Of a stretch of DNA of 64,000 nt, positions 44,161 to 48,890 are shown piece by piece (the stretch's first letter is position 1; every line of letters begins with the position of its first letter). Origin of the DNA: Armatimonadota bacterium (GTDB taxonomy: Bacteria > Armatimonadota > HRBIN16); the NCBI GenBank assembly GCA_963677485.1, contig OY781964.1:1984001-2048000 (forward strand). Reading direction: 5' to 3'. Under the pieces are notes generated by a model. That model was not told the DNA's origin and did no database searches. It saw only the letters and a program-made list of their open reading frames with translations. The translations under genes and the position numbers were made by a program.

Positions 44161-44319
44161 GGTGTTCCTCCAAGGTGGCTGAGTGTGGTTCTTTGGTTTA
44201 CTATACGCCAATGAGGGGGCGGATACCTGCGTGAGGCGGGTTATGGTAATAGATGGCCGGTCGATACGTTAGCTCAAGGTATAATAGAGCTGGATCGGGC
44301 GAACCCATTGGATGTTAGA

Positions 44320-44520
44320 ATGAAGGAACTGTTTTTCGATACGCGCGAGGACAAGGTCGATGGCGGGTACACCGCGTCGGCAATCGGCCTTGGGATACAC
44401 ACCCAAGCTGAGACTCTTGAAGAGCTTCGAGCGAACATCCTTGATGCGGTGGACTGCTACTTTGACGAACCCTGCGAAGCGCCCGCAAGGATTGTAGTTG
44501 TTGGTAGCGTGATTTTGTAG
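44320..44520 (+). CDS. Short HicB-like antitoxin
   Basis: DGGYTA..IHTQAETLEELRANILDAVDCYF. Confidence 0.75.
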   Translation: MKELFFDTREDKVDGGYTASAIGLGIHTQAETLEELRANILDAVDCYFDEPCEAPARIVVVGSVIL

Positions 44521-44619
44521 GGTTTTGTGGACGGATCGAGGATCGAAAGGCACAGAGTCTATCCCCAATCTGCGCCATCTGCGTAATCTGTGGATTGTAA
44601 CTCCCTGTCCACGCCAATT

Positions 44620-44911
44620 GTCGGCTGCACTCAAATCGGATGATGGCATCGACCGACTTGATGCGATTGCCATGATGCTTATTGTGCTTGGGGAGAGTGT
44701 GAAGAACCTGGATAAGGCTACCGATGGCACGCTATTGCCCCAATTCCCAGAAGTGGACTGGAAAGGGGCCAAGGGTGTAAGGGATATCATGAGTCATCAC
44801 TATGTGGATATAGACGCCGAAGTGATTTTCGATATCTGCCAGACTTTCATCCCTCCCCTGATCGCCACCATCGAAAAAATGCGGCAAGAGATAGTCAATG
44901 GCACTGTATAA
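44620..44911 (+). pseudogene. 5'-truncated HepT/DUF86 (HEPN) RNase toxin
   Basis: LDAIAMMLIVLGESVK..PEVDWKGAKGVRDIMSHHY.DID (Rx4H); the N-terminus in the ORF track is translated repeat DNA. Confidence 0.75.
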
Positions 44912-45102
44912 ACCGGTAATACATTGTTTCGCAGCAGATGTGTCGAGGCGCGGTTGCCGCGCCTAAGGGTCGGGATGGGTCGGGAAACCCGACCCCTACA
45001 TGCTTGCCAGACCATCCAGGACACTACCAATGCGGACGCTATGTGTTGAAAAAACCCGCGGAGGGAGGGCGATTCGCGAATCGCCCCTAGTACGCTATAT
45101 AT

Positions 45103-45302
45103 GGTGAGCTCCCCGGACACCAAAAGCAGTCGGGGAGCTAATCTCACCCCTTAGCTGGGGGTGAAGGAGAAGGATTGGATGCCGGAACCGCCCCTGGTGG
45201 AAAACACCGTGACGTAGATAGGCATCCTTCTCCCAATCAACCCATATCGAACAGTATCTTGGGAGAAAACCCCGTGTTCGCTAGGCTGATTTGGTTGATT
45301 GC
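45103..45302 (+). ncRNA. IS110 bridge RNA (two 5' hairpins, target-binding loop, donor-binding loop)
   Basis: LTG ACCGCCCCT 45187-45195, RTG GTAG 45214-45217, LDG ACAGTATCT 45251-45259, RDG CTAG 45281-45284; each lies in an internal loop and matches the element's junctions. Confidence 0.88.
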
Positions 45303-45334
45303 ACCATCAATCACTACCAACTGGAGATTACCAC

Positions 45335-46627
45335 ATGCACGAAGTTGAAGACAAAATCTACATCCATTATGTCGGGATCGACATCTCGAAATTGACGTTT
45401 GACGCGTCTGTATTAGGTTCATCGCACAAGCCGATAGACCATAAGGAGTTCAAGAACAACAAGGCCGGATACAAGGAGTTGTTGTCATGGGTGAAGAAGC
45501 TTACCCGAACTCCCGCCTTGTATGCGGCTGAAGCCACCGGGCCTTACAGCCGACCGCTGCTTGATTACCTCTACGAGCACCAGCACGATGCTGTCCAACT
45601 GGAGCCAAAACGGGTTCTCTATCACCGCAAAGCCAAAGGCTGGGAACAAAAGACGGACTGCTCTGACAGCGTGCTAATCGCTGACTATGTGAAAAGTCAC
45701 AATGTCTCACTCTATGTCCCTCGTCTAGCATGCTATGATGCGCTTATTGGTTACACCAATGACCGCCGTATGCTGGTGCAACACAGACAGGCGATCGCCC
45801 AGCGCCAAAGCTGTCGGCTTACGCGGAGCACAGTGCTGGACGAGATGATCGCTTTTCATGACATGGGCATCAAAAAGCTTGATGTTCAGATCAAAGAGCT
45901 TGTGATGAGTTCACCGCAGATGACCGAAGATATGGCTCTGCTGAAGAGCATTCCGGGTATCGGCGACGTCACAGCAAGCTATTTCCTTGCGAAAATCGGT
46001 GATGCTAAACGATTTGAAACATCGAAAGCGGTCGCGCGCTATTTCGGAATGAACCCCTGCCCGCAACGGTCAGGAAGCTGCAAGACATACGACGGCTCCA
46101 TATCCAAGATGGGTGACCGATATATGCGGACATTACTCTACTGTGGATCGAGCACTGTGGTGAAGATGGTCAACGGTAAGTCGAAAAAGCTTGGCCAGAG
46201 CATGCACGACTTCGTGAAGGAACTGCAGCATCCGAATTTGGTAAAGAATCCCAATAAGAAACCGAAGTCCAAGCGAGTTGTCCGGTGCGCAATCATGCGC
46301 AAGCAGCTGGTGCTCATGTGGTCGGTATTAATCAGCCGTCAGCCATATGATCCAAACTTCGGCATCGAACAAGCTTCAAATGCGGCCAACCAGCAACCGC
46401 TGACCGACGCGAACGGACATGTCCAGGATCGTGCCGGAGCGGCCCATGATATAGCCGGTGTAGGCAATGATCCTGGGCTGGACGTGAGCGTTCCAAGACG
46501 GGGATGCGTGGATGGAAATCCCACCAATGAGCCCACTCCTGCCGGCGGTGGTCGGCCCGCATCCCGAAACCGGCCATCGCGCAGTCGGGTGGGCAACAAA
46601 CCGAGGGTTCTGACACCAGTATCCTAG
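45335..46627 (+). CDS. IS110 family DEDD recombinase with a long C-terminal extension (ORF track start 45299)
   Basis: GIDISK, EATG, KTDCSD (DEDD), SIPGIG, RSGS serine loop, ISKMG. Confidence 0.95.
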   Translation: MHEVEDKIYIHYVGIDISKLTFDASVLGSSHKPIDHKEFKNNKAGYKELLSWVKKLTRTPALYAAEATGPYSRPLLDYLYEHQHDAVQLEPKRVLYHRKAKGWEQKTDCSDSVLIADYVKSHNVSLYVPRLACYDALIGYTNDRRMLVQHRQAIAQRQSCRLTRSTVLDEMIAFHDMGIKKLDVQIKELVMSSPQMTEDMALLKSIPGIGDVTASYFLAKIGDAKRFETSKAVARYFGMNPCPQRSGSCKTYDGSISKMGDRYMRTLLYCGSSTVVKMVNGKSKKLGQSMHDFVKELQHPNLVKNPNKKPKSKRVVRCAIMRKQLVLMWSVLISRQPYDPNFGIEQASNAANQQPLTDANGHVQDRAGAAHDIAGVGNDPGLDVSVPRRGCVDGNPTNEPTPAGGGRPASRNRPSRSRVGNKPRVLTPVS

Positions 46628-46879
46628 CTGCGGCAGTCTGCCGATAGCACGCATCGAAGCATAACGATATCTTTCGAAGCCACGAAGATGTCGCACGTCC
46701 GTTCGCGACTCCGAGCGTCATGTGAGGTGCTACGGACCAACTGATGCCATCTGAGCCTGTTTCTGTCGCGGATCCAGGTTTGGTCTATATGCCACAAACA
46801 TCACATTAACGTTATTCTACGTGGTCTAGAGCCAGTGTCTGATATTCAGGTCCAAATCCCCAGATTTGCCCCTGGGGAC

Positions 46880-46885
46880 TTGACA
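46880..46885 (+). promoter_or_regulatory. -35 hexamer of the IS110 circle-junction promoter
   Basis: TTGACA; joining the ends places it exactly 17 bp from TACGCT (45091-45096). Confidence 0.8.
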
Positions 46886-46932
46886 AAAGCCACAGTATCT
46901 ACAGGCCAATACGTGAACCCGCGGCCAATTAG

Positions 46933-48890
46933 CCCAACTTCCGCAGTTAATCGGCTTGAATGAATTTCAAGCCGATTTTTCGTGCTCAGCATGTTGACAT
47001 CATAGACAGGTTCGTGCTCAAAACATTCAATAATGCTCTGTAGTGTAGAAAATGAGTATGAAAATATCGTGTATATTCAGGGTATGTATTTACGAAAATG
47101 CCGACAAAACAAAGGTGGCAGGGAATACTGCTATTGGCAGCTCGTTGAGTCATATCGGCCAGAACGTGGCGCGCGTCAACGTGTTGTAGCCAACCTGGGC
47201 GAACTCGATCTACCCAGCCAAAAAGGCATGAGGCAATTCGCCACAGGCCAACAAACGCGGGTGTATCAAACCAGTCTGCTCGAGGAGAACTCACCACCTC
47301 AATGGGTAGTTGTGGATACCAGCAGTGTCACAGTAGACCGTGTGAAACAATATGGTGGGGCCTGGCTTTGTATTCAAGTCATCGACAGATTGCATCTCAG
47401 TGGCTTCCTAAAAGAGGTGATGCCCAGAGGCCGTGAATCCGTTCCCTGGCATTCTATGGCCTTAGTACTGGTGATATCAAGACTGCTCGAACCCTCCAGT
47501 GAACTGCAGATCGCCCAACATTTGTTTGAACGCACCTCATTAAGCGACCTGCTCGGTATTCCTAAGCACAAATTGAACGATGACCGGTTATACCGCGCAC
47601 TGGATGCGTTGTTGCCGCATAAGCAGGCCCTTGAGAGACACCTCAAAAACCGTCTTGGCGAATTGTTCCAGATTGAATACGACCTTCTTCTCTATGATGT
47701 CACCAGCACCTATTTCGAAGGACAAGCTAATCGTAACGAACAAGCCAAACGCGGCTATTCGCGCGATCACCGCGGTGACTGCAAGCAAGTCTGCATTGCA
47801 CTAGTGGTGTCAAAGTGTGGGATGCCCTTTGCCTATGAGCTTTTCGACGGTAACCGACACGACTCGACAACAGTTCAAGAGATCATACTCAGTATTGAAG
47901 CAAAATTCGGCTCAGCCGACCGTGTCTGGGTCATGGATCGCGGCATGACAAGCGAGGATAACATCGAGTTCCTCAAGACCCGCGGTCAGCACTACATCAT
48001 AGGTACACCGAAATCGTGCTTGAAGCAATATGAACAGCAGTTACTTGAAGGTAACTGGGATGTGGTGCATGAAGGGCTGGAAGTGAAACTGTGCCCCACT
48101 CCTGATGGTCAAGAGACATTTGTTTTGTGTAGGAGTGCCAATCGGCATGAAAAAGAGAAGGCGATGCATGACAGGTTTGCAGCATGTTATGAAGAGGGCT
48201 TAGAGAAGATAGCTAAAAACTGCTTGAATCGTCGGCAAGACGTCGTCACCACTGCACAGAGAGTGGGCAGATTGAAACAACAATACAGCCGGGCATCTGG
48301 CCTGTTTGACGTAAAGATCACCGAGTTAGATGGGAGAGCACAGATATCCTGGACAAAGCTCGAAGAATGGAGCAGCTGGGCCACGTTAAGTGAAGGCTGT
48401 TACATACTACGCAGCAATATGACTTCCTGGAGTGCCAACGACTTATGGAAAGCGTACATACAGCTGACACAGGCAGAGGCGGCATTCAGAATTCATAAAA
48501 GTGACCTCGCGATCAGACCAATCTGGCACCAGAAGACGGAGCGTGTTCATGCGCACATACTGGTCTGTTTCATGGCATTTGTTCTGTGGAAAACGCTGGA
48601 GCAAATGTGTGTGCAGTCTGGATTAGGTGACAGCCCTCGCATTGTGCTAGACGAACTAAGCCAGATATATACAGTCGATGTGTGGATGGCTACCAAAAAC
48701 GGCCAAAAGATACGTCATCGGACGATCTCAGAACCGACCAAACACCAGCTCATTCTTTTACAAAGGCTCGGACTTTACCTTCCAAGATCACCATTAACCT
48801 GCAGAAATGTAGTGTAGAAAATAAGCTTTCATTTGCGTGCAGTTGAGCACAAACTGCACATCATAAAAACGACAAACTGCGGAAGTTGGG
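46933..48890 (+). mobile_element. IS1634-like insertion sequence with 16-bp terminal IRs and a 4-bp TTAG target duplication
   Basis: CCCAACTTCCGCAGTT 46933-46948 / AACTGCGGAAGTTGGG 48875-48890; TTAG at 46929-46932 and 48891-48894. Confidence 0.9.
47084..48817 (+). CDS. IS1634 family DDE transposase (ORF track start 47033)
   Basis: YWQLVESYR, YDVTSTYFEG, GYSRDHR, VMDRG, AEAAFR..KSDL.IRPIWHQ. Confidence 0.93.
   Translation: MYLRKCRQNKGGREYCYWQLVESYRPERGARQRVVANLGELDLPSQKGMRQFATGQQTRVYQTSLLEENSPPQWVVVDTSSVTVDRVKQYGGAWLCIQVIDRLHLSGFLKEVMPRGRESVPWHSMALVLVISRLLEPSSELQIAQHLFERTSLSDLLGIPKHKLNDDRLYRALDALLPHKQALERHLKNRLGELFQIEYDLLLYDVTSTYFEGQANRNEQAKRGYSRDHRGDCKQVCIALVVSKCGMPFAYELFDGNRHDSTTVQEIILSIEAKFGSADRVWVMDRGMTSEDNIEFLKTRGQHYIIGTPKSCLKQYEQQLLEGNWDVVHEGLEVKLCPTPDGQETFVLCRSANRHEKEKAMHDRFAACYEEGLEKIAKNCLNRRQDVVTTAQRVGRLKQQYSRASGLFDVKITELDGRAQISWTKLEEWSSWATLSEGCYILRSNMTSWSANDLWKAYIQLTQAEAAFRIHKSDLAIRPIWHQKTERVHAHILVCFMAFVLWKTLEQMCVQSGLGDSPRIVLDELSQIYTVDVWMATKNGQKIRHRTISEPTKHQLILLQRLGLYLPRSPLTCRNVV

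What the first reader, a model, noticed from the sequence alone, without database searches (positions are those of the whole stretch)
45087..46900. Fully decodable IS110 bridge-RNA recombination system programmed against the host REP palindromes
Seen: upstream of a DEDD + Ser recombinase lies a ~200-nt RNA with two 5' hairpins and two internal-loop hairpins. Loop 1, GGATGCC-[GGA ACCGCCCCT]-GGTG gaaaa CACC-[GTGAC GTAG ATA]-GGCATCC, specifies target ACCGCCC-CT-AC. Loop 2, CAATCAACC..[ACAGTATCT]-TGGG agaaaa CCCC-[GTGTTCG CTAG]..GGTTGATTG, specifies donor ACAGTAT-CT-AG. The element's real junctions are ATCGCCC-CT-AG (45080-45090) and ACAGTAT-CT-AC (46892-46902). These are the predicted recombination products, with one guide mismatch on the target-left side. 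Known: this matches the architecture of the IS621 bridge RNA (CT core; from memory its left donor is also ACAGTAT and it also targets REPs). Inference: a probably intact member from a distant phylum, with a new target guide, a different right donor and an extra 5' hairpin. It is a candidate programmable recombinase.
Basis: partly seen in the sequence, partly recalled or inferred. Interest (0 to 1): 0.9.

Follow-up and report, generated by a model that had tools for sequence, protein, structure and literature searches.

The report
IS110 bridge-RNA element targeting REPs
This is one of twelve copies of a small jumping gene whose own guide RNA spells out both its ends and the repeated host palindrome it inserts into; it is a clear but ordinary new member of the known bridge-recombinase family.

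Summary
Window 45089-46900 is a 1812-bp IS110-group insertion sequence. It has a 246-nt left end that folds into two 5' hairpins plus two internal-loop hairpins. Its 430-aa recombinase carries all five IS621 catalytic residues.

- **Copies.** The genome holds 12 copies, 10 of them intact, and the RNA region is identical in all 12.
- **Target.** Every copy sits at ...CCCCT|element|A(C/T), at the foot of a REP palindrome. After removing the copies in silico, 6 of the 9 sites that match the loop-predicted target ACCGCCC-CT-AC perfectly are occupied. Occupancy falls to 4 of 166 one-mismatch sites and 1 of 935 two-mismatch sites.
- **Siblings.** Two sibling elements have different target loops (CGCGCCCCU, GUCAUCCCU), each matching its own different REP flank.
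- **Promoter.** A TTGACA box 15 nt from the right end would form a promoter with the left end only in the excised circle.
- **Host.** RpoB places the host in Armatimonadota.

However, this is a new member of a well-described kind (IS621-type bridge recombinases, also REP-targeting), not a new mechanism. RNA expression, circle formation and reprogrammability are untested.

Side finding: the recombinase's 90-aa C-terminal "tail" overlaps a conserved 140-nt hairpin.

The parts
45067..45086 (.). REP palindrome GGGCGATTCGCGAATCGCCC; the element sits at its 3' foot
   Evidence: Read directly. The genome has 38 cores of this family. 10 of 12 element copies lie in this family.
45080..45088 (+). Left target ATCGCCC plus core CT (left junction)
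   Evidence: One mismatch to the LTG, at position 2.
45089..46900 (+). Whole insertion sequence (1812 bp), ending with the second CT core
   Evidence: 12 full-length copies at 99.1-100% identity. Identity ends exactly at these coordinates.
45091..45096 (+). TACGCT, a -10-like hexamer that lies 17 nt from the right-end TTGACA once the ends are joined
   Evidence: The siblings have TATGCT at the same place. It matches the consensus at only 3 of 6 positions.
45103..45143 (+). Bridge RNA 5' hairpin 1 (the RNA 5' end near 45103 is inferred)
   Evidence: Fold. The same module is found in the siblings.
45144..45164 (+). Bridge RNA 5' hairpin 2
45166..45233 (+). Target-binding loop module. LTG ACCGCCCCU 45187-95; inner stem-loop 45196-45208; RTG GUAG 45214-17; handshake AU(A) 45218-20.
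   Evidence: The LTG equals the flank in 6 of 12 copies. RTG matches CT-AC in 11 of 12. There are compensatory changes in the outer and inner stems.
45235..45300 (+). Donor-binding loop module. LDG ACAGUAUCU 45251-59; inner stem-loop 45260-73; RDG CUAG 45281-84; handshake GC 45285-86.
   Evidence: The LDG equals the last 9 nt of the element. The RDG matches CT plus the first two bases AG.
45335..46627 (+). Recombinase gene (430 aa; D16, E66, D108, D111, S246). The homologous core ends near aa 342.
46381..46523 (+). Conserved long hairpin inside the ORF's C-terminal tail
46628..46900 (+). Right non-coding end. TTGACA at 46880-85; left donor ACAGTAT plus core CT at 46892-46900.
46901..46902 (+). 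Right target AC
   Evidence: AC in 11 of 12 copies, AT in 1.

Best explanation
Window 45089-46900 is a recently active IS110-group insertion sequence of an Armatimonadota bacterium. It transposes by bridge-RNA-guided recombination.

**Inferred cycle.** The element is excised as a circle whose RE-LE junction reads ACAGTAT-CT-AG. Joining the ends places the right-end TTGACA 17 nt from the left-end TACGCT. That drives a roughly 200-nt RNA starting near 45103. The RNA binds the DEDD+Ser recombinase.

**Guides.** The RNA's first internal loop pairs with both strands of the target: LTG ACCGCCCCU with the bottom strand, and RTG GUAG with the top-strand CTAC. Its second loop pairs with the donor junction: LDG ACAGUAUCU and RDG CUAG. 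Strand exchange at the shared CT core inserts the element between CCCCT and AC, at the GTAG-tagged foot of host REP palindromes.

**Shown:** the anatomy, the copy number, the site specificity, the guide-to-site correspondence, the covariation in sibling elements and the catalytic residues.

**Inferred:** RNA expression and its ends, RNA-protein binding, circle formation and programmability.
For: **Copies.**
- There are 12 copies and 10 have an intact ORF. The RNA region 45089-45334 is invariant in all 12.
- All 12 flanks read ...CCCCT|IS|A(C/T). The sequence outside the REP is unrelated between copies, so these are independent insertions.

**Site occupancy.**
- In the in-silico emptied genome, occupancy by number of mismatches to ACCGCCC-CT-AC is 6 of 9 (0 mismatches), 4 of 166 (1), 1 of 935 (2), 1 of 5299 (3) and 0 of 23063 (4).
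- Fisher's test for 0 versus 1 mismatch gives p = 4.5e-7. The four occupied one-mismatch sites differ only at LT positions 1-2.
- Within a single palindrome family the hairpin is held constant. There, 6 of 7 perfect-match sites are occupied against 2 of 18 T-variant sites, p = 0.001. These counts were read; the test is.

**Sibling elements.**
- Element B in the same genome has LTG CGCGCCCCU, and its copy-1 flank is CGCGCCC-CT. Its RDG ACAAG matches its LE start TGT.
- Element B' in a same-genus genome has LTG GUCAUCCCU. Its flank is GTCATCC-CT in 6 of 8 copies and has one mismatch in the other 2. RT is AC in 7 of 8.
- A, B and B' each fold into the same four modules, with z = -3.55, -4.09 and -2.93. 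Stem pairs show compensatory changes.

**Handshake guides.** The first handshake base of each loop pairs with position 7 of the non-cognate DNA in A, B and B'. This is read directly, and it is the rule described in PMC11208158.

**Promoter.** TTGACA ends exactly 15 nt from the right end in A, B and B'. At a 17-nt spacer, LE positions 3-8 read TACGCT or TATGCT. The scan found no promoter-like site on the + strand upstream of the RNA in the integrated state. Excision-reconstituted promoters are described for IS110 elements in PMC11208160.

**Protein.** It matches the IS621 transposase (8wt6, E = 2.5e-28) and the ISCro4 transposase (9t56, E = 5e-26). D16, E66, D108, D111 and S246 align with IS621 D11, E60, D102, D105 and S241.

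**Relatives in public data.**
- A 94%-identical relative on a metagenome contig keeps all four guides. Its only change in the RNA region is 45185 G>T, in a linker.
- Another contig carries this locus's left flank ending ...CCCCTA followed by C, with no element after it.
Against: - No direct RNA or circle evidence could be obtained, because every public run found is held as contigs.
- The -10 hexamer of this element, TACGCT, matches the consensus at only 3 of 6 positions. It would fail the scan tool's own threshold.
- RDG complementarity is only 4 nt.
- One of 12 insertions has 3 mismatches to the guide and one has 2.
- In the siblings the LDG departs from the donor. B reads ACAGUAUCA and B' reads ACAGUAACA, against the donor ACAGTATCT.
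- B copy 2 sits in a site with 2 LTG mismatches.
- The second handshake base of the donor loop does not pair.
- No Rfam family matched the RNA. This may only mean that none is curated.
Confidence: 0.9

Rival explanations
1. The recombinase, not the RNA, recognises the REP. It would read the hairpin shape or the sequence directly, and the loop complementarity would be incidental or vestigial.
For: All 12 insertions lie at the 3' foot of a hairpin. For ISPpu10, a target stem-loop is reported to add specificity beyond base pairing (abstract of 10.64898/2026.03.19.712850).
Against: Within one palindrome family with the same hairpin, the single base that matches the LTG changes occupancy from 2 of 18 to 6 of 7. 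Sibling elements with nearly identical RNA scaffolds differ in the LTG and in their REP target in step. A hairpin contribution in addition to RNA guidance is not excluded; I put that at about 0.4.
Confidence: 0.04
2. The element is a well-preserved but now inactive family. The copies would be fossils of a past burst, and the RNA or protein no longer works.
For: 2 of 12 copies carry a 16-bp frameshifting deletion. The -10 box is weak. No circle junction ACAGTATCTAG is present in the assembly (0 sites).
Against: Ten ORFs are intact and the copies are 99.9-100% identical, with only 6 variable single positions in 1812 bp. The catalytic residues are intact. The best-matching sites are nearly saturated. 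A transient circle is not expected in an assembly.
Confidence: 0.1
3. The match between the loops and the junctions is a chance resemblance in a GC-rich repeat context.
For: The target is a low-complexity C-run, and CCCCTAC occurs 728 times in the genome.
Against: The full 11-mer is expected about 3.7 times by base composition. Even so, 6 of its 9 occurrences carry the element. Three elements give three different, matching guide-target pairs.
Confidence: 0.01

Closest known systems
IS621 of Escherichia coli (bridge RNA; PMC11208160, PMC11208158; PDB 8wt6)
   Same: - LE-encoded RNA with target and donor internal loops.
- 9-nt LTG starting with A and ending with CU, and a 4-nt RTG GUAG.
- TBL handshake AU and a G as the first DBL handshake base.
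- CT core; left donor with A6 and T7; right target AC.
- REP target: the IS621 wild-type target is ATCAGGCCTAC.
- Promoter rebuilt by circularisation.
- DEDD+Ser residues.
   Different: - The HMMER alignment spans the roughly 265-aa core (query aa 10-274). I did not compute percent identity to IS621. The other IS110 relatives found are about 30% identical or less.
- LT is ACCGCCC rather than ATCAGGC.
- The right donor starts AG, whereas IS621 has T at donor positions 10 and 12.
- Two 5' hairpins instead of one.
- A 1-nt rather than about 11-nt spacer between the two loop modules.
- A 90-aa C-terminal tail, with at least 273 nt after the stop codon.
- The host phylum is Armatimonadota.
ISCro4 transposase (PDB 9t56)
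   Same: The same two domains align over residues 10-277, E = 5e-26.
   Different: It is a distant relative. Its RNA and target were not compared here.
ISPpu10 and ISPpu9 of Pseudomonas putida (10.64898/2026.03.19.712850, abstract; PMC12288879, search listing)
   Same: Both are IS110-family elements that insert into repeated intergenic palindromes or REPs whose stem-loop lies 5' of the site.
   Different: No sequence comparison was made. ISPpu9 is described with its small RNA downstream of the transposase gene, whereas here the guide RNA is upstream.
Sibling elements B (same genome, L091:197-1986) and B' (same-genus genome, L001:948-2744)
   Same: The same RNA architecture, the same left donor ACAGTAT-CT, the same right target AC, the same TTGACA position and the same tail hairpin.
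   Different: About 42% protein identity. The LTGs are CGCGCCCCU and GUCAUCCCU, aimed at other REP families. The right donor is TGTAT.

Membership tests
IS110 family recombinase (IS110 group) | N-terminal RuvC-like DEDD domain (PF01548) plus C-terminal Tnp domain (PF02371) | tested here: met
   E = 1.8e-21 and 4.4e-22, both above the curated cut-offs.
IS110 family recombinase (IS110 group) | Catalytic D, E, D, D and the Ser nucleophile | tested here: met
   alignment to 8wt6: D16, E66, D108, D111 and S246 align with IS621 D11, E60, D102, D105 and S241 (residue numbers). All five are invariant in the 8-sequence alignment.
IS110 family recombinase (IS110 group) | Guide RNA in the left end, with LE longer than RE | tested here: inconclusive
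   The RNA is in the LE (246 nt), which meets the first half. The RE is 273 nt after the stop codon, or about 530 nt after the conserved core. It is therefore not shorter than the LE, unlike the group description.
Bridge RNA (IS621 type) | [quoted passage not shown] | tested here: met
   There are two 5' hairpins rather than one.
Bridge RNA (IS621 type) | LTG and RTG complementary to the bottom and top strands of the target, including the core | tested here: met
   Covariation in B and B'.
Bridge RNA (IS621 type) | LDG and RDG complementary to the joined element ends, including the core | tested here: met
   For this element, 9 of 9 LDG bases and 4 of 4 RDG bases match. In the siblings the LDG has 1-2 departures.
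Bridge RNA (IS621 type) | Handshake guides that pair with position 7 of the non-cognate DNA | tested here: met
   The TBL base A pairs with donor T7, and the DBL base G pairs with target C7, in A, B and B' (rule).
Bridge RNA (IS621 type) | Promoter reconstituted across the RE-LE junction | tested here: inconclusive
   TTGACA-17-TACGCT/TATGCT is conserved in position in three elements. The -10 of this element is weak, and no transcript data exist.
Bridge RNA (IS621 type) | The RNA is expressed, binds the recombinase, and redirects recombination when its loops are changed | not testable with these tools
   Only assembled contigs of public runs were available.
GTAG-tagged REP (the target) | High-copy short palindromes with a GTAG tag, plus Y1 (RAYT-like) transposase genes | tested here: met
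   There are 728 CCCCTAC sites (the complement of GTAGGGG) in many palindrome families. There are 38 family-1 cores, and for 31 of the 38 no reading frame stays open longer than 200 codons across the core. The genome has 3 Y1_Tnp matches. The GTAG-tag concept comes from the title and listing of PMC3733652.

The most novel reading that the evidence does not exclude
This Armatimonadota clade of IS110 elements may carry a second functional nucleic-acid component. It is a conserved, roughly 140-nt extended hairpin (46381-46523) that the recombinase ORF merely reads through as a disordered tail. It is accompanied by position-conserved AACGWTAT motifs in an unusually long right end.

If the hairpin is part of the transposition cycle, it would be an accessory element not described for bridge recombinases. 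Possible roles are an mRNA or circle-state regulator, a recombinase or host-factor docking site, or an RNase III or antisense control point.
Probability: 0.2. Interest if true: 0.5.

Novelty: new member of a known kind. Interest (0 to 1): 0.35.

Why it matters
It adds a cleanly decodable, apparently active bridge recombinase from a little-studied phylum, and it comes with three natural experiments.

- Twelve insertions show how occupancy falls with guide mismatches. Only positions 1-2, the farthest from the core, tolerate a mismatch.
- Sibling elements have target loops retargeted in nature to other REP families.
- The same CT-AC / GTAG-tag logic seen with IS621 in E. coli appears here too. 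This suggests that REP heads are a recurrent safe harbour for this family across phyla.

As an orthologue about 30% identical or less to the other IS110 relatives found here, it could be one more candidate for tool development. It does not change the understanding of the mechanism.

Tried and rejected
- **Rfam.** A scan of 44500-47500 at E <= 1 gave only a chance IRES match outside the RNA. There was no bridge-RNA family hit.
- **Metagenome contig scans.** A scan with the protein found nothing. A scan with a 6-sequence alignment found only three loci at 26% identity.
- **Cluster look-up.** It gave no organism names.
- **ESM Atlas.** A search with an RpoB fragment gave only broad bacterial clusters, which are useless for placement.
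- **Phylum-wide search.** A search of 401 genomes found the clade only in this genome and one same-genus genome at E <= 1e-40. 'Not found in those searched' is all that can be said.
- **Sequencing runs.** All 23 listed runs are kept as contigs. I laid four of them (X1, X3, X6, X8) and found no RE-to-LE joint and no transcript ends. Contigs cannot show rare circles or RNA ends, so this is no evidence either way. The six RNA runs hold only 0.06-0.13 of the sampled words.
- **Circle junction.** The 11-mer ACAGTATCTAG is absent from the assembly (0 sites), as expected for a transient form.
- **RNA alignment.** The MAFFT alignment of the three RNAs is out of register in the 5' hairpins. I therefore did not run the count of structure pairs on the projected structure and compared independent folds instead.
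- **Covariance model.** I did not build one and did not search the about 70 distant IS110 loci (L008-L082).
- **Right-end extensions.** I looked for an extended RTG or RDG beyond 4 nt. The right flanks of the 12 copies share nothing with GTGAC, and the RDG extension does not match the LE.
- **Protein model.** AlphaFold on a shallow 8-row alignment gave a mediocre model (mean pLDDT 59.9). I used it only to note that residues 342-430 are unstructured, and I did not send it to a fold search.
- **Direct IS621 comparison.** I did not obtain the IS621 DNA or RNA sequence. The comparison rests on residue and nucleotide numbers quoted in paper passages. The IS621 left donor 'ACAGTAT' as a string was not found in either text; only dA6/dT7 is stated.
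- **Not consulted.** Supplementary files of the papers were not opened. They may list this element among predicted bridge RNAs. ISfinder could not be consulted.
- **Literature.** A search for IS110 plus Armatimonadota found 0 papers.
Full report
**What is there.** The left junction ATCGCCC-CT-AG is at 45080-45090 and the right junction ACAGTAT-CT-AC is at 46892-46902. Between them lie a 246-nt non-coding left end, an ORF at 45335-46627 (430 aa from the ATG that homologues share) and a 273-nt right end. The protein carries both IS110 family domains, DEDD_Tnp_IS110 at 1.8e-21 and Transposase_20 at 4.4e-22. Its best matches among solved structures are the IS621 transposase (8wt6, E = 2.5e-28) and the ISCro4 transposase (9t56, E = 5e-26). 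In that alignment D16, E66, D108, D111 and S246 fall on the IS621 catalytic residues D11, E60, D102, D105 and S241 (residue numbers from passages of PMC11208158; the PDB chain index runs two ahead of the paper's numbering).

**The RNA.** Window 45103-45300 folds at -77.9 kcal/mol (z = -3.55; 0 of 200 shuffles fold as well) into four modules (the longer stretch agrees).
- Two 5' hairpins lie at 45103-45143 and 45144-45164.
- A long stem at 45166-45233 encloses a large internal loop with a small inner hairpin.
- A second module of the same kind lies at 45235-45300.
- In the first loop the 5' side reads GGA-ACCGCCCCU and the 3' side reads GUGAC-GUAG-AUA.
- In the second loop the 5' side ends ACAGUAUCU and the 3' side reads GUGUUCG-CUAG-GC.

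This geometry follows what PMC11208158 describes for IS621: a 3-nt linker, a 9-nt LTG, an inner stem-loop, a GU linker, a 4-nt RTG and then two handshake bases (A81/U82, G166/U167). No Rfam family matched.

**Copies and ends.** The complete one-contig genome holds 12 full-length copies at 99.1-100% identity.
- Identity stops exactly after ...CCCCT on the left and resumes with A(C/T) on the right in all 12.
- The sequence outside the REP is unrelated between copies, so these are independent insertions.
- Ten copies keep the 430-aa ORF. Two share a 16-bp frameshifting deletion.
- There are only six other variable positions, and none lies in 45089-45334.

**Does the target loop predict the sites?** The left targets are ACCGCCC (6 copies), ATCGCCC (3), AACGCCC (1), CCCGCCC (1) and CCGCCCC (1). 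The right target is AC in 11 copies and AT in 1.

I removed the 12 copies in silico and classed every NNNNNNNCTNN site by its mismatches to ACCGCCC-CT-AC:

| Mismatches | Occupied | Sites |
|---|---|---|
| 0 | 6 | 9 |
| 1 | 4 | 166 |
| 2 | 1 | 935 |
| 3 | 1 | 5299 |
| 4 | 0 | 23063 |

- Fisher's test for 0 versus 1 mismatch gives p = 4.5e-7.
- The four occupied one-mismatch sites all differ at LT positions 1 or 2, the positions farthest from the core.
- Of the three unoccupied perfect sites, only one lies in an intact palindrome.
- Holding the hairpin constant within the GGGCGNTTCNCGAANCGCCC family, the perfect-match variant is occupied in 6 of 7 cases. The T-variant is occupied in 2 of 18 (p = 0.001). 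The counts were read; the test is.
- This argues for sequence reading by the guide and against recognition of the hairpin alone.

**Covariation in sibling elements.** A second, 42%-identical element (B) is in the same genome. One copy is intact. The other is interrupted by an IS21-family element with IstA- and IstB-like ORFs.
- B's LTG is CGCGCCCCU, and its copy-1 flank is CGCGCCC-CT. Copy 2 sits in CCTGCCC-CT, which has two mismatches.
- B's RDG ACAAG matches its own left-end start TGT.

A same-genus genome holds at least 8 copies of B'.
- Its LTG is GUCAUCCCU.
- Its flank is GTCATCC-CT in 6 of 8 copies and has a single mismatch in the other 2. RT is AC in 7 of 8.

All three elements share the left donor ACAGTAT-CT and RTG GUAG.
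- In B and B' the LDG departs from the donor by one and two bases (ACAGUAUCA, ACAGUAACA). This is a wrinkle I cannot explain.
- B and B' fold independently into the same four modules, with z = -4.09 and -2.93.
- The three-way alignment shows compensatory changes in the outer and inner stems of the target module.
- In all three elements the first handshake base of each loop can pair with position 7 of the non-cognate DNA. This is the conserved rule reported for IS110 orthologues.

**Promoter.** TTGACA ends exactly 15 nt from the right end in A, B and B'.
- With a 17-nt spacer, the -10 falls on left-end positions 3-8, which read TACGCT in A and TATGCT in B and B'.
- This is the arrangement PMC11208160 describes, in which excision reconstitutes a sigma-70 promoter that drives the RNA.
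- In the integrated state the scan found no promoter-like site on the + strand.
- The -10 of this element is weak (3 of 6 positions), and no transcript data exist.

**Target biology and host.**
- The genome has 728 CCCCTAC sites spread over many palindrome families. There are 38 cores of the family used here, and for 31 of the 38 no reading frame stays open longer than 200 codons across the core.
- There are three Y1_Tnp (RAYT-like) genes.
- CTAC is the complement of the GTAG tag that names one REP super-family (title and listing of PMC3733652). The IS621 wild-type target ATCAGGCCTAC ends the same way.
- The nearest named relatives of RpoB are Armatimonadota: 71% identity to an 'Armatimonadetes bacterium' and 64-66% to Chthonomonadales and Capsulimonas.

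**Relatives in public data.**
- Protein relatives at 61-95% identity, all about 430 aa, exist on short metagenomic contigs. Identity then falls to 42% for B-like proteins and to about 30% for ordinary 320-330-aa IS110 transposases.
- The best plasmid-borne relatives reach 30%, and their matches stop at query residue about 342.
- Laying contigs of four runs gave three results:
  - The cultures carry the element at roughly 8-13 times the word depth of the flanks.
  - A metagenome contig at 94% identity has a single change in the RNA region, 45185 G>T in a linker.
  - Another contig carries this locus's left flank and continues ...CCCCTA-C... with no element.
- No circle joint was seen, but contigs cannot show one.

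**Side finding: the tail.**
- Residues 342-430 have no counterpart in other IS110 proteins.
- They are modelled as unstructured, with pLDDT 21-33.
- Yet they are the best-conserved DNA between A and B, at 78.7% over 134 nt.
- Third-codon positions there are as conserved as first and second positions: 0.63-0.73, against 0.13-0.53 in the core.
- No frame on either strand shows a coding pattern of substitutions.
- The + strand of 46375-46525 folds into a long hairpin (-65 kcal/mol, z = -3.97). The - strand gives z = -1.23.
- A, B and B' each fold into the same hairpin. Of 51 consensus pairs, 32 are invariant, 3 change on one side, 6 are compensatory and 10 are broken in at least one sequence.
- I read this as a nucleic-acid element that the ORF runs through. 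Three sequences, two of them close, are too few to be sure.

**Verdict.** The element is a functional-looking IS110-group bridge-recombinase system aimed at GTAG-tagged REPs. It is a new member of a known kind, because REP-targeting, CT-core, LE-encoded bridge RNAs are the published paradigm.

Noticed in passing
window 46381-46523: A conserved, roughly 140-nt extended hairpin lies inside the recombinase's C-terminal tail (aa 342-430). Synonymous positions are as conserved as the others, no frame shows a coding signature, and the tail is modelled as disordered. The hairpin is shared by sibling elements B and B'.
   Followed up: partly
window 46663-46677 and 46808-46822; L091 and L001 right ends: AACGWTAT motifs lie at conserved distances from the right end in A, B and B' (about 238-248 nt and 80-94 nt). 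The first is followed by a small conserved hairpin, ATCTTT...AAAGAT. The right end is unusually long for the IS110 group.
   Followed up: partly
L091:197-1986 (G000 about 1296596-1298385) and L092:278-4639: A sibling IS110 element B (387-aa ORF) targets a different REP family. Its second copy is interrupted, at about element position 622-627, by a 2.57-kb IS21-family element with rve/Mu-transposase-C and IstB ORFs.
   Followed up: partly
window 47033-48817: A 594-aa DDE_Tnp_1 (IS4-like) transposase ORF starts 133 nt to the right of the element. This may explain why the right flank is not syntenic in the related metagenome contig.
   Followed up: no
window 44308-44911: A HepT-like ribonuclease ORF (128 aa, E = 4.3e-15) is preceded by a 70-aa ORF with no Pfam hit. 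This is probably a toxin-antitoxin pair just left of the REP.
   Followed up: no
window 44977-44999: A second, unoccupied REP of another family (GGGTCGGGAAACCCGACCCCTAC) lies about 70 nt upstream of the occupied one. Genome-wide there are 728 CCCCTAC sites in many palindrome families and 3 Y1_Tnp genes.
   Followed up: partly
G000:C1 138550, 1100948, 3874741, 2574553: Four further PF01548 matches belong to other IS110-family elements, with open frames of 442-512 aa. Their RNAs and targets were not examined.
   Followed up: no
G000:C1 1369196-1370991 and 1871159-1872954: Two copies of the element share the same 16-bp deletion (window-equivalent 45773-45788), which truncates the recombinase to 165 aa. 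This suggests either one defective copy mobilised in trans or a duplication.
   Followed up: no
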